Shown here piece by piece: positions 22,985-46,162 of a stretch of 64,000 nt of DNA; positions within the stretch are counted from its first letter, which is position 1, and each line of letters opens with the position of its first letter. The stretch spans positions 55,034-119,033 of the forward strand of contig JAPOHH010000001.1 of NCBI GenBank assembly GCA_029979505.1. The letters are read 5' to 3'. The position numbers and the translations under genes were made by a program. Origin of the DNA: a bacterium (lineage in GTDB: Bacteria; Pseudomonadota; Gammaproteobacteria; GCA-002705445; GCA-002716945). The notes below the pieces were generated by a model that was not told where the DNA came from, did not search any database, and saw nothing but the letters and a program-made list of their open reading frames with translations.

Positions 22985-23884
22985 ATGAAGCAAATATTGA
23001 TAAAATATCTTAGTTTATTGTTTTTTATAGGATTTATTGTAAATACATCATACGCTGGAGGCAAAGAGAGCAAATCATCTAACTTAATGATGGCTTCAGA
23101 TTATTATGGATCATATTCAATATCATTGGGCCAGCTTGATTGGAACAAGAATAGTAATACAGCAGACACTGAACCTATGCTCTACCAACCTATTTCGGTA
23201 GACGGCTGGTTGGGGAAAAAACTTAGTCAATATACAGAAGGGGTATTAAGCTTTAAATATACTTATTATGGACGCTCTGGCAACACAGAGCAGGCAGAAG
23301 ACGATGCTCTAAGACAGGCTTTAAATGCCAATCTTTTACATCTTAGACATTACAATAGCTCTACAAGTTTTATTAACCTTGGGTATGTTTTTTCCGAAGA
23401 GAATGAAAACAACAGCTCTAATGGTAATATGAATAGTTATATAGCAAGTGGGGGTCTAGCAACTGAATCTATGATTTTTGAATTAGGCATTGCTTCTACA
23501 GCTACAGAAACTCTTAGCTTGTATGCTGATGAGATAGTTTATTACAATTTTAGTTTTAAATTACCAATAACAAACAGAATCAATTTAGTAGCTTCAAAGC
23601 ATTATTCAGAATATGAAAGAAAACTTCAAAACCTAACTTACGACGGTGAGGAAATGGATATATCAGGTCTAAAAGTTACTTATGACTTGAATAACTCATT
23701 TATTACTCTAGGTGGTGACAGATATACTGTTAAAAATGACTCAAGCCCTGAGAACACCGGCGGCAGCGTCTATTTTTCATGGACAGTACCTTTTGGTAAA
23801 TTGCCAAATAGTAGAACAAGCTTCATATTAGATAACCGACCAGCGGTAGACAGGGTAATAGGATTTGGTTCAGCGCTTAATTAA
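22985..23884 (+). CDS. Hypothetical exported protein (signal peptide, Ser/Asn/Tyr-rich, possible outer-membrane protein)
   Basis: N-terminal signal peptide MKQILIKYLSLLFFIGFIVNTSYA. No recognisable family motifs. Confidence 0.5.
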   Translation: MKQILIKYLSLLFFIGFIVNTSYAGGKESKSSNLMMASDYYGSYSISLGQLDWNKNSNTADTEPMLYQPISVDGWLGKKLSQYTEGVLSFKYTYYGRSGNTEQAEDDALRQALNANLLHLRHYNSSTSFINLGYVFSEENENNSSNGNMNSYIASGGLATESMIFELGIASTATETLSLYADEIVYYNFSFKLPITNRINLVASKHYSEYERKLQNLTYDGEEMDISGLKVTYDLNNSFITLGGDRYTVKNDSSPENTGGSVYFSWTVPFGKLPNSRTSFILDNRPAVDRVIGFGSALN

Positions 23885-25287
23885 GAAGTAGATTTTGAAA
23901 GTTTCTTAAAAGCGCTTAATGCTCTTTCTCTAGTAATAGATAAATCTACAATTGGATACGGATAATCACTACCAAGCTTAACTCCATATTCTATTAAACT
24001 TTTATCATCAAGTTCACTAGGTAAATGTATGTATTTATTAGGTATATTTTTTAATTCTGGAACATATTTTCTAATATAATCTCCATCTGGATCAAATTTT
24101 TTACTTTGTGTTACAGGATTAAATATCCTGAAGTAGGGGGCAGCATCTGCTCCAGTACCTGCCACCCATTGCCAACTTGCAGAATTACTTGCGATATCTG
24201 CATCAACAAGCGTGTCCCAGAACCATTCCTGACCATATTTCCAATGTATCAATAGGTTTTTTACAAGAAAAGACCCAACTATCATCCTTACTCTATTATG
24301 CATATAACCTGTTTCATATAGCTGCCTCATGCCTGCATCAATTATTGGGTATCCAGTCATACCTTTTTGCCAGCTTTTTAGATGATCCTGATTATCTAAC
24401 CATTTAAAATTATCAAATTTTTTTTGAAGGTTTGTATCCACCAAATGAGGGAAGTGGTAGAGTAAATGGTAAGAGAATTCTCTCCAAACAAGTTCTTTAT
24501 AAAAAACTTCCGCATCTTCTGTTTTTATTTTTTCAACAGATTTAGCAATTTCTCTAATTGATATTTCACCAAATCGTATATGTGCGGATAACATTGATGT
24601 ATGCTGCTTATCAGGCCTGTTTCTTCCTTCTGAGTATCCATTCAGCCCATCTGACAGAAAAACTTTTAATTTTTTCTGAGCGCCAGCTTCCCCTGGAGTC
24701 CATTCACTAAGCAGTTTTTGATGCCATTTTTCTGTCTTTATAGTTGAATCCAAAATTTTTGAGATTTGTTCGTTATACTTACAATCAATAAAATCAATTT
24801 CTTCAGTATTATAGTTAAATAATTCATACGTCATGTCCTGATATTGTTGTTTATAAAATGGGGTATAAACTTTAAATGGAGTAGCATCTTTTTTAAGTGT
24901 ATTCTGTGGATTTTTTAGTAAGCATGAATGAAATGTTATGCAATTAACATCATGATTTTTAACAATATTTTTAATATCATTATCTTGATTTATATCATCT
25001 TTTAAATAACGTGCATTCCAAAGAATTTCTTTGATTCCATGATTGTTCACTAAATCTAACAATACCTTGTTAGGTTCGCCCTCAAATAATGCCAGGCTAC
25101 CTTTTAACGATTTATCCAATGATATTAAGCTTTGTTTAAGCCACCATTTGCTTGCAGAGCCTAATGAAGTAAAGGGGTCATAGATATAAATAGGAAGGAC
25201 TTTGCGTTTATTTTCTATACAGTAATTTATGACTGCATTATCAGATACCCTAAGATCATTTCTAAACCAAATGATACTCTTTACCAT
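23881..25287 (-). CDS. phrB: Deoxyribodipyrimidine photolyase (class I CPD photolyase)
   Basis: FAD-binding region WQWVAGTGADAAPYFRIFNP and the N-terminal photolyase domain. Confidence 0.9.
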   Translation of the reverse strand: MVKSIIWFRNDLRVSDNAVINYCIENKRKVLPIYIYDPFTSLGSASKWWLKQSLISLDKSLKGSLALFEGEPNKVLLDLVNNHGIKEILWNARYLKDDINQDNDIKNIVKNHDVNCITFHSCLLKNPQNTLKKDATPFKVYTPFYKQQYQDMTYELFNYNTEEIDFIDCKYNEQISKILDSTIKTEKWHQKLLSEWTPGEAGAQKKLKVFLSDGLNGYSEGRNRPDKQHTSMLSAHIRFGEISIREIAKSVEKIKTEDAEVFYKELVWREFSYHLLYHFPHLVDTNLQKKFDNFKWLDNQDHLKSWQKGMTGYPIIDAGMRQLYETGYMHNRVRMIVGSFLVKNLLIHWKYGQEWFWDTLVDADIASNSASWQWVAGTGADAAPYFRIFNPVTQSKKFDPDGDYIRKYVPELKNIPNKYIHLPSELDDKSLIEYGVKLGSDYPYPIVDLSITRERALSAFKKLSKSTS

Positions 25288-41470: not shown

Positions 41471-42042
41471 TTAATATAAAAAATTTATTAACTATATTTA
41501 TTTTATCAATTTCATCAATTGCTCTAGCCGGCGAACCTCAAGTAAATCATAAAGAATCAAAATATTTTATTGGAATTGGGACAGGAGATGGAGGTGGTGC
41601 TCATGGCGGTAGTTTTAATGCATATAGAATTTCATATCAAAGTTTTCTTTCAAAGAATCATAAATATGGTTTTGATTACTTATCGGATGTAGGTTTAAAT
41701 TTTTGGAAGGATGATTCTAGGCTTAGTGCTTCAGATAAATCTACTGCTACTTCAAGCTTAGATTCTTCCAATTTCTCAATATCATATTCAAGAATCATCA
41801 GGAAATATTTAAATCAAAATACTTTCTTTGATATAGGAGTAGGGCTATCCATTCATAATAATGACTCAATGGGTGGTTCTGACCTAGGATCATATTATCA
41901 ATTTGAAAATAGGTTAGGTGTTGGGTATGAGCGAGGCACTTATCGTTCTGTCTTCAACTTATTCCATTATTCAAATGGCGGTTTAGAAGGTAAAAATGAT
42001 GGAGTGGATATCCTGATGTTATCTATTTCTAAGTATTTTTAA
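41467..42042 (+). CDS. PagL-like lipid A deacylase / acyloxyacyl-hydrolase family outer-membrane protein (putative)
   Basis: Signal peptide from the GTG at 41467 (in frame with the longer track ORF). About 190 aa with a C-terminal aromatic residue (KYF). Motif FHYSNGG resembles the PagL His-x-Ser-Asn active-site motif as I recall it. Confidence 0.45.
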
Positions 42043-42169
42043 TCTTATTTTTTTTACATTTTTTAGAACAATATAGAACATTGTCCCAATCTTTTTGCCA
42101 TTTTTTTCTCCAGCTAAATGGCAATTTACATACGGGACATATTTTTTCTGGAAGATTATTCTTTTTCAT
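42029..42169 (-). CDS. DUF2256 zinc-ribbon micro-protein (46 aa), not in supplied ORF track
   Basis: Minus-strand translation [46 protein letters not shown] matches the DUF2256 pattern C-x2-C...F-W-R-K-K-W...W-D...Y-C-S. The ATG overlaps the stop region of the upstream DUF393 gene, consistent with translational coupling. Confidence 0.6.
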
Positions 42170-42509
42170 CTAGTTGATGTTTATTTTTATAGAATAAAAA
42201 AAGTGCTATCACTTCATAAAAGATAACACTTACTTGATATATTATTGGAGTAGAGATTATATGGGCAATCCATCTATATTTTGGAATGTTTTCCCACATT
42301 ATAATGAATGCACTTACTCCAGAATAAACTTTTTCATCTTTTATCACGTGTAATCGTCTAAGCAGCTCTCTATGACTTCTACCTGATAATTTAGTAGATA
42401 TTTCTAAGTCATTGATATCTAACCAATTAATATTATTTTCTAAAGATTTATAATGATTTATTTCCTTTGAGCATATTGGGCAACTATCATTAAATAATAC
42501 TTTAATCAT
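42156..42509 (-). CDS. Thiol-disulfide oxidoreductase DCC family (DUF393)
   Basis: N-terminal FNDSCPICS (CxxC) and size of about 117 aa; overlaps the upstream cryptochrome-like gene by 8 nt. Confidence 0.55.
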
Positions 42510-43980
42510 AAGTATTCTCTGCTAAAAATTCATTTGCTTTAGATAGAATAGTATCTTTTCTATCTTTTCTCATTTTATCAAATAAGTTAACCATCATATT
42601 TAATCGTGGATTTTTCTTAAAAAAAAGTCGGTTTTTGTCAATAAATCTCCAATATAATCCATCAAATGTATCGCACCAAGTACCTTTTTTAAAATCCATC
42701 ATTTTTAATATATAGTTAGATCCACAAATATAAGGCTTAGTAGCCATAATTCCACCATCAGCAAAAAGGCCCATACTGTAGACATTTGGAGTCATTACCC
42801 AGTCTGATGAATCTATATACAACTCCATAAACCATTTATAAGCATTTTTTGGCTCTATTTCACATAAATTCATTAGGTTGACTTGAATCATGAGTCTTTC
42901 AATATGGTGAGAATATGCATGTCTAATCGTACTTTTTATGCTTATATCTAATGGATCCAGACCTGTATCACCTGTGTACCAGGACTCCTTTAATGTCCTT
43001 TTGTGGTTAAAGAAATTTCTTTTCTCTATCTCATCACCTTCATGGTGATATATGCATCTCATAAATTCACGCCAACCAATAATTTGTCTTACAAATCCTT
43101 CATATGAATTAATAGGAATATTTTTTATACTTTTGATATTCTTGAGTATTTCATATGGAGTAATCAAGCCAATATTGAGAGATGAACTTAAGTTGGAGTG
43201 GAACCAAAGATGTGATCTTTGGTCAACAGAATCCTCGAAATCACCAAAGTTTTTGAATTTACTCTTTATAAAGTAGTCTAAGTTTTGTAATGCTTGTTTA
43301 CGTGTAGTGGGATAATTAAAGTCTTTTTCATTACCATAGTGATCTTTAAACTCATCAGAGACCAACTTTAAAATATCTTTAGTATTTTGTGTGTGTTTAA
43401 AGATAGGCGAAGAGGGTGGTTCTAAATTTTTTGGTATTTTTTTTCTATTTTCACTATCATATGTCCATTTTCCACCAATCGGCTTACCATCTTTTAATAA
43501 TATATTTAACTTTTTTCTCTGATTTATATAAAAATCGGTCATCTTATACTTTGGTGCTTTTCTGGATGGACACATATCGAAAAACTCCTCTTTTTTTGTA
43601 AGAAACATAGGAGACTGATACTCTTTTAACTCTTCGATATATTTTTTGACTTTTCTAATATTGCTGTAAAACCATTTATCCTCTATTTCCCAAATACTTA
43701 TCTTTCTTATGTCATTTTCCTTAATATATTTAATCAAGGAATCTTCGTAAGTGTATGAATCATATCCTAATTCTTGATATTCTATATCTATTTTATTTTT
43801 TTTAAGTTCATCCCTATAAGATCTCATTGCAGATAAAAATAAAATTATTTTATGTTTATGGTGTCTCTCATAAGTGCATAGACCCATATCTTCCCGCATA
43901 AAAACTTTTGTAGGTTGTATCTTCTTGATTTGATCTATAGGAAATAGTTGATTCCCAAGCACTATATGTAAATCTGTCAT
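42502..43980 (-). CDS. Photolyase-related protein of the FeS-BCP/CryPro family (PhrB/CryB-like (6-4) photolyase lineage), apparently lacking the Fe-S cysteine ligands
   Basis: Motifs HHKHKIILFLSAMR, GGKWTYDSENR, EGFVRQIIGWREFMRCIY, SHHIERLMI and ADGGIMATKPY parallel Agrobacterium PhrB as I recall it. The C-terminal region has only one Cys where the C-x2-C-x12-C cluster is expected. Confidence 0.8.
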   Translation of the reverse strand: MTDLHIVLGNQLFPIDQIKKIQPTKVFMREDMGLCTYERHHKHKIILFLSAMRSYRDELKKNKIDIEYQELGYDSYTYEDSLIKYIKENDIRKISIWEIEDKWFYSNIRKVKKYIEELKEYQSPMFLTKKEEFFDMCPSRKAPKYKMTDFYINQRKKLNILLKDGKPIGGKWTYDSENRKKIPKNLEPPSSPIFKHTQNTKDILKLVSDEFKDHYGNEKDFNYPTTRKQALQNLDYFIKSKFKNFGDFEDSVDQRSHLWFHSNLSSSLNIGLITPYEILKNIKSIKNIPINSYEGFVRQIIGWREFMRCIYHHEGDEIEKRNFFNHKRTLKESWYTGDTGLDPLDISIKSTIRHAYSHHIERLMIQVNLMNLCEIEPKNAYKWFMELYIDSSDWVMTPNVYSMGLFADGGIMATKPYICGSNYILKMMDFKKGTWCDTFDGLYWRFIDKNRLFFKKNPRLNMMVNLFDKMRKDRKDTILSKANEFLAENTYD

Positions 43981-44071: not shown

Positions 44072-44866
44072 TTAATCTATATAAAAAACATTAGAATTCA
44101 TTATTTTATAAGATTTAATCAATGAGGCTGCATTGTCTGATGAAAGCCAATTAAAGAGTTTCTCTGCAGGAGCAAATTCTAAATTATTACATCTGTTATG
44201 ATTGACAAGAATCATTCCATAACTATTTTTAAGTTCAGTTGGATTTTCATACAAAATGGTATGATTAGATTTATTATTAAAACGCAACCAAGAAGATCTA
44301 TCAGTGAAAATATACCCGTCTAGTGATATAGCTATATTAAGGGACTGTCCCATACCTTGACCAGTCTCAAGGTACCAATCTCCGCTATGTATACCAGGTT
44401 TCAGCGATACATTCTTCCAAATGTCCATTTCAGCTGAATGAGTACCACTAGAATCGGATCGTGATATGAATTTATGCTGGTATTTGTAGATTTTTGAAAA
44501 AGCTTCGTGTATTGATTCAGAAGTTGATACTTCCGCCTTATCCATTTTAGGCCCAACTAGTATAAAATCATTATACATTAATTCGTGCCTTTTAAGTCCA
44601 AAACCATTATCCATAAACATTTTTTCACGTTTTTGATCATGTACAATTAGTATATTTCCATCACAATTTCTTGCATTCATAATTGCTTGACCAGTTCCTA
44701 CAGCAATAACTTTAATTTTAACGGTATTAAAGTCTGGATAAAATGGTAATAAGTATTTATATAAACCAGAGTCTCTTGTTGAGGTAGTTGATTGAATGAT
44801 TAACGTATCGCTAAAAACAATTTGGTAAGAAAATAAAAGTATGAAGGTAAATAATTTTTTAAACAT
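44072..44866 (-). CDS. tupA: Tungstate ABC transporter substrate-binding protein (TupA type)
   Basis: Signal peptide; anion-binding motif STTSTRDSGL and VIAVGTGQA...ILIVHD...MYNDFILVGP, matching TupA-type binding proteins as I recall them. Confidence 0.65.
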   Translation of the reverse strand: MFKKLFTFILLFSYQIVFSDTLIIQSTTSTRDSGLYKYLLPFYPDFNTVKIKVIAVGTGQAIMNARNCDGNILIVHDQKREKMFMDNGFGLKRHELMYNDFILVGPKMDKAEVSTSESIHEAFSKIYKYQHKFISRSDSSGTHSAEMDIWKNVSLKPGIHSGDWYLETGQGMGQSLNIAISLDGYIFTDRSSWLRFNNKSNHTILYENPTELKNSYGMILVNHNRCNNLEFAPAEKLFNWLSSDNAASLIKSYKIMNSNVFYID

Positions 44867-45485
44867 TTAAAATTCTTCCTTTTTCCATTATCAACTCTTG
44901 ATGGTTTAAATTCTTAAGGAGTAACTCATCGTGACTTACCATAATTATGGTACTACCCTCTTTTAAATATTTATTAAGTATATTTGATATTAGTTTTACA
45001 TTTTTAGTGTCAAGATTATTTGTTGGCTCATCATAAAATAAAATATTAGGCGTTACCAAAGAGCTTCTTAATAAAGATACTAATTGTAATTCCCCACCAG
45101 ATAATAATCTAATATCAATATCTAAAAAATCGTTCAATATAAATTCATTTACTTTTTTTTCTATAATTGAGTTCCACTTAGATTTGCATATATCTTTACA
45201 GTATAGAGCGTGGCGAAGGTTTTCTCTAACGGTTCTATTTAGAAAGATTGGATTTTGAAAAATATAGGCTATTTCTATATTATTTTGATCAAAATTACGA
45301 ATGATTTTTCCTGATGATGGTTGTATTAAACCAAAAACTAATTTTAATAAAGTTGTTTTCCCAGCTCCATTAGGTCCTTTTATTACAGAGATACAGCCAC
45401 GTTTAATATCACAAGAAATATTCGTAATTATTTCATTGCTATCAAGTCTATATGATAAATTATTTATACTATATATATTCTTCAT
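44859..45485 (-). CDS. ABC transporter ATP-binding protein (tungstate transporter ATPase component)
   Basis: Walker A GPNGAGKTT, ABC signature LSGGELQ, Walker B LFYDEPT. Confidence 0.8.
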   Translation of the reverse strand: MKNIYSINNLSYRLDSNEIITNISCDIKRGCISVIKGPNGAGKTTLLKLVFGLIQPSSGKIIRNFDQNNIEIAYIFQNPIFLNRTVRENLRHALYCKDICKSKWNSIIEKKVNEFILNDFLDIDIRLLSGGELQLVSLLRSSLVTPNILFYDEPTNNLDTKNVKLISNILNKYLKEGSTIIMVSHDELLLKNLNHQELIMEKGRILNV

Positions 45486-46162
45486 AAGAATTTTTTTTTC
45501 AAAATTAAAATTAAAACATTCATAACTAATGCAATTAATATTAATGATATTCCTAAGCTTAGTGCTAAGGATAATTCACCCCTAGATGTTTCCAATACAA
45601 TACTTGTAGTCATAACTCTAGTAAGGTTATCAATATTTCCTCCTACAATAATTACTGCACCAACCTCAGATAATGCCCTACTTAGACCTGTAATAAATGC
45701 AATAACTACATCATATCTTGTCTCATATATAATTGTATTTCTCGTTTTATATTTAGTGGTATTTAATGATGATAATAACTCACTTAAATACATATACTTA
45801 TCTGTAAAACATTTAAGCAACAAAGACATAATAATTGGAGTGACAATGATAAATTGAGCTAATATCATAATCGCTGGAGAGTATAAAATATCCATAAATC
45901 CAAGAATTCCCGATGCAGAAAAAATAATATATAAAACTAGACCTACGACAACGGGAGGAAGGCTCATAAGTGAATTGATAATAATAGTTATCATTTCTTT
46001 ACCAATAAAGTTAGTCGTAGAAATATAACTAGCAATAATTATCGATAGTATTCCAGACAATAATGTCGCAAATATAGATACATATAGAGACAAAACAACT
46101 ATTTCAAGATAGCTTTGATTAAGCTCAAAAATATTTTTAAATGATTCGAGTAAAAGTTCCAC
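45482..46162 (-). CDS. ABC transporter permease (TupB-like, BPD_transp_1)
   Basis: Six-TM protein with EAA-like loop LSRALSEVGAVIIVGGN. Confidence 0.75.
   Translation of the reverse strand: MELLLESFKNIFELNQSYLEIVVLSLYVSIFATLLSGILSIIIASYISTTNFIGKEMITIIINSLMSLPPVVVGLVLYIIFSASGILGFMDILYSPAIMILAQFIIVTPIIMSLLLKCFTDKYMYLSELLSSLNTTKYKTRNTIIYETRYDVVIAFITGLSRALSEVGAVIIVGGNIDNLTRVMTTSIVLETSRGELSLALSLGISLILIALVMNVLILILKKKFL

What the first reader, a model, noticed from the sequence alone, without database searches (positions are those of the whole stretch)
42502..43980. FeS-BCP/CryPro-family photolyase homologue that appears to have lost its [4Fe-4S] cysteine ligands
The protein carries the family's conserved blocks (HHK.KI..F.SAMR, GG.W.(F/Y)D.ENR, EGF.RQIIGWRE(F/Y)MR, HHI.RLMI, ADGG...TKPY). 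In Agrobacterium PhrB/Rhodobacter CryB (as I recall) the Fe-S cluster is held by one Cys after the WYTG region plus a C-x2-C-x12-C motif near the C-terminus. Here the first position reads ...LDISIKSTI (no Cys). The C-terminal segment reads KGTWCDTFDGLYW, a single Cys with the loop deleted. A naturally cluster-less member of this lineage, encoded alongside a canonical class I CPD photolyase (23881-25287), would be informative for the debated role of the Fe-S cluster in (6-4) repair. A repair-inactive photoreceptor is the alternative.
Basis: partly seen in the sequence, partly recalled or inferred. Interest (0 to 1): 0.6.

Follow-up and report, generated by a model that had tools for sequence, protein, structure and literature searches.

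The report
Iron-sulfur-free bacterial (6-4) photolyase gene
This gene encodes a light-driven DNA-repair enzyme of the bacterial (6-4) photolyase family that has lost its iron-sulfur cluster, but such cluster-free versions are already described and are common in ocean bacteria, so this is an ordinary new member of a known subgroup.

Summary
ORF 42502-43980 (-) encodes a 492-aa protein of the prokaryotic (6-4) photolyase / FeS-BCP / CryPro family (Pfam DPRP E 1e-57; PhrB 4DJA E 1e-77; AF2 model TM 0.86-0.90 to every solved family member). Three independent alignments put none of the four [4Fe-4S] ligands in place. PhrB C350 is Pro343, C438 and C441 fall in a 10-residue loop deletion, and C454 is Asp437. 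The lone Cys436 sits one residue before the C454 position.

The interpretation (natural cluster loss) is right, but it is not new. Ma et al. (bioRxiv 2018 / FEBS J 2019) reported that about 30% of the family lacks the Cys, that these proteins form one clade, and that Prochlorococcus PromaPL repairs (6-4) lesions. Chen et al. (NAR 2022) named the clade 'subgroup M'. Haney et al. (mBio 2022) showed that the Synechococcus orthologue protects against UV.

All catalytic, lesion-binding and Mg2+-site residues are kept, so an active (6-4) photolyase is the most likely function. Relatives abound in SAR11, SAR86, Actinomarina, Planctomycetota and picocyanobacteria.

Two corrections or additions: the second photolyase (23881-25287) is class III (PhrA-like), not class I. 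The gene heads a three-gene overlapping operon with a DCC1-like thiol oxidoreductase and a 46-aa four-Cys DUF2256 protein. DUF2256 neighbours both cluster-free and cluster-bearing family members.

The parts
42502..43980 (-). Cluster-less prokaryotic (6-4) photolyase homologue ('subgroup M' / PromaPL-type), 492 aa
   Evidence: ORF. Pfam DPRP E 1e-57 plus weak FAD_binding_7. PhrB/CryB E 1e-75 to 1e-78. AF2 model plus Foldseek TM 0.86-0.90. Falls in the cluster-less side of a clean 148 vs 13 bipartition.
42952..42954 (-). Pro343 codon at the position of [4Fe-4S] ligand PhrB Cys350
   Evidence: HMMER, MAFFT and hhalign. Pro in 137 of 150 cluster-less representatives, Cys in 13 of 13 cluster-bearing ones. 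Codon checked.
42670..42699 (-). Shortened loop M428-D437. A 10-residue deletion removes the C438-x2-C441 segment. Cys436 aligns with PhrB Ala453, and Asp437 sits at the ligand C454 position.
   Evidence: The same deletion is present in all 150 cluster-less representatives.
42892..42909 (-). His358-His359-Ile-Glu-Arg-Leu363, the active-site motif equivalent to PhrB H365-H366...L370
   Evidence: Conserved in the query and in 145-149 of 150 cluster-less representatives. Coordinates.
42793..42795 (-). Met396 at the position next to FAD N5 (PhrB Glu403)
   Evidence: Met in 143 of 150 cluster-less representatives. This matches the pattern reported for subgroups Chl, HC, Ac and M (PMC9178010).
42156..42509 (-). 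DCC1-like (DUF393) thiol-disulfide oxidoreductase, 117 aa. Its start overlaps the photolyase stop by 8 nt (ATGATTAA).
   Evidence: Pfam PF04134 E 7e-18. Overlap read. A homologue is found in the flanks of 18 of 80 cluster-less loci, directly downstream in most of them, and of 4 of 80 cluster-bearing loci.
42029..42169 (-). DUF2256 small protein, 46 aa, four Cys (CPVC...CSKKC). Its start overlaps the DCC1-like stop by 14 nt.
   Evidence: ORF. Pfam PF10013 E 1.6e-20. Adjacent to the photolyase in 45 of 80 cluster-less loci and in 16 of 67 evaluable cluster-bearing loci.
23881..25287 (-). Second photolyase: class III-type CPD photolyase (PhrA-like), 468 aa
   Evidence: Pfam DNA_photolyase plus FAD_binding_7. 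Best PDB relative 4u63 (Agrobacterium class III) E 2e-129 and 435 bits, against E. coli 1dnp at 250 bits.

Best explanation
The gene encodes a functional, naturally [4Fe-4S]-free member of the prokaryotic (6-4) photolyase family, the PromaPL-type 'subgroup M'. Inferred mechanism, by homology with PhrB: the protein binds FAD and the flavin is photoreduced to FADH-. The enzyme binds UV-damaged DNA with help from Mg2+ held by Asp175 and Asp250. After blue or near-UV excitation it transfers an electron to the flipped-out (6-4) lesion, and His359 (PhrB His366) assists catalysis. The cluster-binding loop has been deleted and the remaining ligand positions replaced by Pro343 and Asp437, so the enzyme needs no iron. 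It works alongside a class III CPD photolyase encoded 17 kb away, so both major UV lesion types would be covered. It is co-transcribed, and probably translationally coupled, with a DCC1-like thiol oxidoreductase and a DUF2256 four-Cys mini-protein. Shown here: family membership, fold, absence of ligands, conservation of catalytic residues, clade structure and operon layout. Inferred: FAD binding, (6-4) specificity, Mg2+ dependence, iron economy as the selective driver, and any role for the two small partners.
For: Family and fold. No ligand at any of the four positions by three methods. The deletion is shared by all 150 cluster-less representatives. An NJ tree built without the cluster columns separates 148 cluster-less from 13 CCCC sequences cleanly, which agrees with the single clade reported in 10.1101/366252 and with 'subgroup M' in PMC9178010. 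Residues equivalent to PhrB D179, D254, H365, H366, R369, L370, D397, N406, Y424 and Y430 are all identical in the query, and each is conserved in at least 144 of 150 cluster-less representatives. The query has Met at the N5-proximal site and an incomplete Trp/Tyr chain (W342 is Tyr335, Y391 is Phe384), exactly as described for subgroup M. PromaPL, a cluster-less member, repairs (6-4) lesions in vitro with Mg2+. The cluster-less Phr2 of Synechococcus RS9916 contributes to UV survival and protects E. coli. The gene has many relatives at 54-79% identity, and base composition like its surroundings (29.5% vs 30.6% GC). Homologues occur in SAR11, SAR86, Actinomarina, OM43-like, SUP05, SAR116, Planctomycetota and cyanobacterial genomes. 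That distribution is consistent with the iron-economy argument of Ma et al..
Against: There is no biochemical evidence for this protein. PromaPL's measured activity was very low (0.012 vs 405 min^-1 for PhrB), and its authors could not rule out misfolding. Haney et al. speculated that cluster-less Phr2 proteins are CPD photolyases. I could not obtain the PromaPL sequence, so co-clustering with it was not tested directly. The AF2 model is poorly defined at residues 407-420, the conserved ADGG...TKPYICG segment. The antenna pocket differs from PhrB (E37 is Leu34, R108 is Trp103), so the antenna chromophore is unknown.
Confidence: 0.8

Rival explanations
1. It is a CPD photolyase rather than a (6-4) photolyase. 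On this view, loss of the cluster marks a change of substrate, as Haney et al. proposed for cluster-less Phr2 of marine picocyanobacteria.
For: PMC9426592: loss of Phr2 lowered survival after UV-B, and phr2 protected E. coli from both UV-B and UV-C. The authors predicted CPD activity because the Fe-S Cys are missing.
Against: The His-His-x-x-Arg-Leu motif and Tyr417/Tyr423, needed for (6-4) repair in PhrB, are strictly kept. PromaPL repaired a (6-4) oligonucleotide in vitro. The genome already carries a dedicated CPD photolyase in this window. The CPD proposal rested on inference only, not on an assay.
Confidence: 0.08
2. It is mainly a blue-light photoreceptor or regulator (a cryptochrome-like role, as described for R. 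sphaeroides CryB) with little or no repair activity.
For: CryB has regulatory functions (stated in PMC9178010). PromaPL's in vitro activity was about 30,000-fold lower than PhrB's. The photoreduction chain is altered (Tyr335 and Phe384).
Against: Lesion-binding, Mg2+-site and catalytic residues are under strong conservation across 150 divergent representatives, which is unexpected for a pure sensor. There is no C-terminal extension and no regulator gene in the operon. None of subgroups Chl, HC, Ac or M has the intact chain, yet SePhrB (subgroup HC) is an active enzyme.
Confidence: 0.07
3. A metal centre is still present, either assembled from other cysteines (C35, C373, C419 and C436 are conserved in the close clade) or supplied in trans by the co-encoded four-Cys DUF2256 protein.
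For: C373 and C419 are invariant, and C35 and C436 at least 90% conserved, among 120 homologues of 54% identity or more. C419 and C436 co-occur more often than expected (37 both, 35 C436 only, 11 C419 only, 67 neither). DUF2256 belongs to the Cys-coordinated metal-binding TRASH clan (PMC4047054) and is adjacent in 45 of 80 cluster-less loci.
Against: Across the whole cluster-less clade these Cys are present in only 43-81 of 150 representatives, so there is no conserved four-Cys site. C35 lies in the N-terminal antenna domain. DUF2256 is also adjacent to 16 of 67 cluster-bearing (CCCC) homologues, so the linkage is not specific to proteins that lost the cluster.
Confidence: 0.05

Closest known systems
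PromaPL (Prochlorococcus marinus MED4, Q7V2P7) and 'subgroup M' of prokaryotic 6-4 photolyases (Ma et al. 2018/2019; Chen et al. NAR 2022)
   Same: DPRP-type N-terminal domain plus FAD domain. All four Fe-S Cys are absent. The photoreduction chain is incomplete and Met sits next to FAD N5. The Mg2+-site aspartates are kept. The hosts are marine bacterioplankton.
   Different: The host is different: an uncultured AT-rich gammaproteobacterium. Identity to PromaPL itself was not measured. Cyanobacterial cluster-less homologues are about 48-49% identical. The operon with DCC1-like and DUF2256 genes is not mentioned in those papers.
Agrobacterium PhrB (PDB 4DJA) and Rhodobacter CryB (3ZXS), FeS-BCP sensu stricto
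   Same: Same fold (TM 0.88-0.89) at 30-32% identity. Identical catalytic and lesion-binding residues: H365/H366, L370, Y424, Y430, D179 and D254.
   Different: No [4Fe-4S] ligands and a 10-residue loop deletion. W342 is Tyr, Y391 is Phe and E403 is Met. The DMRL 'ceiling' salt bridge E37-R108 is replaced by Leu34 and Trp103.
Phr2 of marine Synechococcus RS9916 (Haney et al. mBio 2022)
   Same: A cluster-less PhrB-like protein co-existing with other photolyases in a surface-ocean bacterium. Genetic evidence shows that the type contributes to UV survival.
   Different: The host is a cyanobacterium. Substrate specificity there was only predicted (as CPD). The genome studied there carries four to five photolyase genes.
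Synechococcus elongatus SePhrB (PDB 8IJY), subgroup HC
   Same: Met next to FAD N5, an incomplete electron-transfer chain and an antenna pocket unlike the DMRL type.
   Different: SePhrB keeps the four Cys and the cluster, and it binds 8-HDF.

Membership tests
Prokaryotic (6-4) photolyases (FeS-BCP/CryPro group in the broad sense) | PhrB-like N-terminal domain (Pfam DPRP / IPR007357) followed by a photolyase FAD domain | tested here: met
   PF04244 E 1.1e-57 over residues 6-223. PF03441 at 27.4 bits (cut-off 27) over residues 301-392.
Prokaryotic (6-4) photolyases (FeS-BCP/CryPro group in the broad sense) | Full-length sequence and fold similarity to solved members (PhrB, CryB, SePhrB, CcPhrB, VcPhrB), clearly above other photolyase classes | tested here: met
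   phmmer E 1e-62 to 1e-78, against 8e-05 for class III. Foldseek TM 0.86-0.90, against 0.57 for class II.
Prokaryotic (6-4) photolyases (FeS-BCP/CryPro group in the broad sense) | Catalytic, lesion-binding and Mg2+-site residues (PhrB H365, H366, L370, Y424, Y430, D179, D254) | tested here: met
   All are identical in the query: H358, H359, L363, Y417, Y423, D175 and D250.
Prokaryotic (6-4) photolyases (FeS-BCP/CryPro group in the broad sense) | Light-dependent repair of (6-4) photoproducts, with FAD as cofactor | not testable with these tools
   Needs purified protein. Inferred from PromaPL.
[quoted passage not shown] | Four conserved Cys coordinating a [4Fe-4S] cluster (PhrB C350, C438, C441, C454) | tested here: not met
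   The query has Pro343, deletion, deletion and Asp437 at these positions, by HMMER, MAFFT and hhalign.
Subgroup M / PromaPL-type cluster-less prokaryotic 6-4 photolyases | Belongs to the prokaryotic 6-4 group but lacks all four Cys | tested here: met
   The definition comes from PMC9178010.
Subgroup M / PromaPL-type cluster-less prokaryotic 6-4 photolyases | Cluster-less sequences form one clade distinct from Cys-bearing ones | tested here: met
   An NJ tree on 161 sequences, with the cluster columns removed, gives a clean 148 vs 13 split. All cluster-less sequences share the loop deletion.
Subgroup M / PromaPL-type cluster-less prokaryotic 6-4 photolyases | Groups with PromaPL itself in a phylogeny | not tested
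Cyanobacterial cluster-less homologues L022 and L028 are 48-49% identical and carry the same deletion.
Subgroup M / PromaPL-type cluster-less prokaryotic 6-4 photolyases | Incomplete Trp/Tyr photoreduction chain, and usually Met next to FAD N5 | tested here: met
   Tyr335, Trp383, Phe384 and Met396. The pattern is described in PMC9178010.
Class I CPD photolyase (claimed for the neighbour at 23881-25287) | Closest relatives are class I enzymes (E. coli Phr, A. nidulans PhrA) | tested here: not met
   The best solved relative is the class III PhrA 4u63 (435 bits), followed by plant cryptochromes (about 270-285 bits), E. coli 1dnp (250 bits) and A. nidulans 1owl (234 bits). NCBIfam class I models score below their cut-offs.

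The most novel reading that the evidence does not exclude
The conserved, translationally coupled trio of prokaryotic (6-4) photolyase, DCC1-like thiol oxidoreductase and DUF2256 four-Cys mini-protein is a functional unit. On this reading DUF2256, a TRASH-clan metal-binding peptide of unknown function, is a dedicated accessory factor of bacterial (6-4) photolyases. It might act in DNA or lesion recognition, or in keeping the flavin reduced. Its linkage is tighter in lineages that discarded the [4Fe-4S] cluster (56% of cluster-less loci against 24% of cluster-bearing loci).
Probability: 0.25. Interest if true: 0.55.

Novelty: new member of a known kind. Interest (0 to 1): 0.22.

Why it matters
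The role of the [4Fe-4S] cluster in bacterial (6-4) photolyases is still called unknown (abstract of PMC12082625), and natural cluster-free enzymes are the obvious comparison. That comparison was recognised and begun years ago with PromaPL and subgroup M, so this gene does not open the question. It does add three things. First, it is another well-conserved candidate from an abundant marine gammaproteobacterial lineage. PromaPL expressed poorly, and no cluster-less member appears among the solved structures in the PDB copy searched, so a better-behaved orthologue would be useful. Second, it supports the view that the iron-free form is the standard (6-4) photolyase of streamlined surface-ocean bacteria. 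Third, it points to an unstudied gene linkage with DUF2256 and DCC1-like proteins.

Tried and rejected
1. Retrieving the PromaPL sequence for a direct comparison failed. It was not in the supplements of PMC9178010 or PMC9426592. A homologue search seeded with a cyanobacterial cluster-less protein returned no Prochlorococcus-named entries.

2. Naming the source organism failed. AlaRS and photolyase homologues are labelled only 'Gammaproteobacteria bacterium'.

3. I tested the hypothesis that DUF2256 is a substitute, in trans, for the lost cluster. It was rejected as a specific explanation, because 16 of 67 evaluable cluster-bearing loci also have an adjacent DUF2256.

4. I tested the hypothesis of an alternative four-Cys site within the protein. 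The query's six Cys are not conserved across the cluster-less clade (43-81 of 150 for the best four).

5. Measuring the C419-C436 distance and identifying cavity-filling residues was not possible, because the model coordinates are not exposed.

6. The promoter and terminator scan around the operon found no more sites than in shuffled sequence.

7. NCBIfam has no model matching the protein.

8. Literature searches for DUF2256 and for DUF393 together with photolyase found no functional study.
Full report
**The object.** Window 42502-43980 (minus strand) is a single ATG-initiated ORF of 492 aa. Pfam assigns the N-terminal half to DPRP / PhrB-like (PF04244, E 1.1e-57). It also gives a marginal FAD_binding_7 hit (27.4 bits, cut-off 27). 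Against PDB sequences the best hits are all prokaryotic (6-4) photolyases: Agrobacterium PhrB (4dja and its mutants, E about 1e-77), S. elongatus SePhrB (8ijy), Caulobacter (9hnk), Rhodobacter CryB (3zxs) and Vibrio (7ykn). The next photolyase class scores only 8e-05. An AlphaFold2 model built on 120 homologues has pLDDT 88.6 and pTM 0.90, with one poorly defined segment at residues 407-420. Foldseek against the PDB returns the same proteins at TM 0.86-0.90, followed by class II photolyases at 0.57. Family and fold are therefore secure.

**The cysteines.** I reconstructed PhrB residues 1-504 from the HMMER output and confirmed that C350, C438, C441 and C454 are Cys in it. Three alignment methods then agree:
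- pairwise HMMER
- a 163-sequence MAFFT alignment
- an hhalign comparison of a 46-sequence cluster-less profile with a 13-sequence Cys-bearing profile

Position C350 is Pro343. The C438-x2-C441 segment lies in a 10-residue deletion; hhalign places Lys431 opposite C438 and the others place a gap there. Position C454 is Asp437. The lone Cys in 'GTWCDTF' is Cys436 and aligns with PhrB Ala453, one residue before the ligand.

**Is it a lineage or an accident?** A full HMMER scan of 1.84 billion representatives found 4,129 relatives. I aligned the full-length members (at least 420 aa) of the 150 best together with 20 closer homologues and PhrB, 163 sequences in all. Of these, 150 lack the Cys and all of them share the same loop deletion, while 13 (including PhrB) have CCCC. 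A neighbour-joining tree made after removing the cluster columns splits 148 cluster-less from 13 CCCC sequences without exception. A scan of GTDB species genomes found cluster-less homologues at 44-54% identity in many lineages:
- numerous Pelagibacterales (SAR11)
- SAR86
- Candidatus Actinomarina
- Porticoccaceae
- Methylophilaceae
- Thioglobus
- Puniceispirillales
- Planctomycetota
- Marinamargulisbacteria
- cyanobacterial MAGs

The window's own host can be named only as an uncultured, AT-rich (30.6% GC) gammaproteobacterium. The gene's composition matches its surroundings, and the neighbourhood is ordinary chromosomal housekeeping.

**Function.** Residues equivalent to PhrB D179 and D254 (Mg2+ site), H365/H366, R369, L370, D397, N406, Y424 and Y430 are all identical in the query. 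Each is conserved in at least 144 of 150 cluster-less representatives. This argues for an active enzyme using the PhrB mechanism, and against a decayed or purely sensory protein. Differences lie elsewhere:
- The photoreduction chain is altered: W342 becomes Tyr335 (with Trp334 next to it), W390 is kept as Trp383, and Y391 becomes Phe384.
- The residue beside FAD N5 is Met396 instead of Glu.
- The E37-R108 salt bridge over the DMRL antenna is replaced by Leu34 and Trp103.

The first two differences are exactly what Chen et al. describe for subgroups Chl, HC, Ac and M. The antenna chromophore remains unknown.

**What is already known.** Ma et al. (bioRxiv 10.1101/366252, published in FEBS J 2019) state that about 30% of FeS-BCP-group proteins lack the four Cys and that these form a single clade. 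They also showed that PromaPL from Prochlorococcus MED4 repairs a (6-4) oligonucleotide only with Mg2+, although weakly, and they discuss marine iron limitation as the driver. Chen et al. (NAR 2022, PMC9178010) renamed the whole group 'prokaryotic 6-4 photolyases'. They defined subgroup M (20 members from multiple lineages, PromaPL included) as the only subgroup without the Cys. Haney et al. (mBio 2022, PMC9426592) identified cluster-less Phr2 in all marine Synechococcus subcluster 5.1 strains. They showed that it contributes to UV survival, and they speculated that it might be a CPD enzyme. I classify the finding as a new member of a known kind. I could not obtain the PromaPL sequence to confirm direct co-clustering. 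No cluster-less member appears among the solved structures in the PDB copy searched, where the closest matching chain is 32% identical and cluster-bearing.

**Corrections and additions.**
- The second photolyase at 23881-25287 is closest to Agrobacterium PhrA, a class III CPD photolyase (4u63, 435 bits), then to plant cryptochromes, then to E. coli class I (250 bits). The organism thus mirrors the Agrobacterium PhrA/PhrB pair, minus the cluster.
- The photolyase stop overlaps by 8 nt the start of a DCC1-like (DUF393) thiol-disulfide oxidoreductase at 42156-42509.
- The stop of that gene overlaps by 14 nt the start of a 46-aa ORF at 42029-42169. This ORF is a clear DUF2256 protein (PF10013, E 1.6e-20) with a CxxC...CSxxC signature.
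- DUF2256 lies on the same strand within 600 nt of the photolyase in 42 of 80 cluster-less genome loci, and somewhere in the flank in 45 of 80.

**Control for DUF2256.** Because a four-Cys partner next to a protein that lost four Cys is suggestive, I ran a control. I recovered 80 metagenomic loci with a Cys-bearing (CCCC) profile. Of the 67 that are evaluable, 16 also have DUF2256 in the flank, and in 13 of these it lies within 150 nt of the photolyase gene. The linkage is therefore a property of the whole prokaryotic (6-4) photolyase family, perhaps tighter in the cluster-less branch, and not a replacement for the cluster. The DCC1-like gene is found in the flanks of 18 of 80 cluster-less and 4 of 80 cluster-bearing loci. 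The paper library holds no functional study of DUF2256. One paper places it in the Cys-coordinated metal-binding TRASH clan.

**Verdict.** The most likely function is an iron-free, Mg2+-assisted (6-4) photolyase (confidence about 0.8). The rivals are a CPD photolyase, a photoreceptor, or an alternative metal site, and none is favoured by the residue evidence. Interest is low for the finding as stated. The DUF2256 and DCC1-like operon is the only element here that looks unexplored.

Noticed in passing
window 42029-42169 (-): A 46-aa DUF2256 ORF (PF10013, four Cys) overlaps the end of the DCC1-like gene. DUF2256 is adjacent to prokaryotic (6-4) photolyase genes in 45 of 80 cluster-less and 16 of 67 cluster-bearing loci. 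No functional literature was found.
   Followed up: yes
window 42156-42509 (-): A DCC1-like (DUF393) thiol-disulfide oxidoreductase with a CPIC motif, translationally coupled to the photolyase by an 8-nt overlap. The same arrangement recurs in about 17 SAR11 loci and one Nitrosomonadales locus (L072); in the Methylophilaceae locus L065 the homologue lies upstream of the photolyase.
   Followed up: partly
It is flanked by RmuC, tRNA-Ser and tRNA-Arg.
   Followed up: yes
window 42724-42726 and 42673-42675 (Cys419, Cys436): Two Cys near the former cluster region are conserved in the close clade (C419 invariant, C436 at least 90% in 120 homologues) and co-occur across the wider clade (37 both, 67 neither, 46 one only). 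A disulfide or residual metal contact cannot be judged without model coordinates.
   Followed up: partly
loci L002-L060 (SAR11), about 1-5 kb downstream of the photolyase, opposite strand: Many SAR11 loci carry a second, divergent photolyase-family gene close to the cluster-less (6-4) photolyase. It shows about 30% identity to the window's CPD enzyme over about 200 aa.
   Followed up: no
window 44072-46162 (-): A TupA-like tungstate or oxyanion ABC transporter (substrate-binding protein, ATPase and permease) lies directly upstream on the same strand, separated from the photolyase start by a 91-bp AT-rich spacer. The TupA score is below the NCBIfam cut-off (209 vs 400 bits).
   Followed up: no
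window 42502-43980 compared with L001-L080: The window's gammaproteobacterial protein is more similar to SAR11 (alphaproteobacterial) homologues (51-54%) than to SAR86 or other gammaproteobacterial ones (45-50%). This hints at horizontal exchange of the gene among surface-ocean bacteria.
   Followed up: no
AF2 model residues 407-420 (window about 42721-42762): The most conserved motif of the family (ADGGIMATKPYICG) is the only segment modelled with pLDDT below 50. It probably needs FAD or DNA to be ordered.
   Followed up: no
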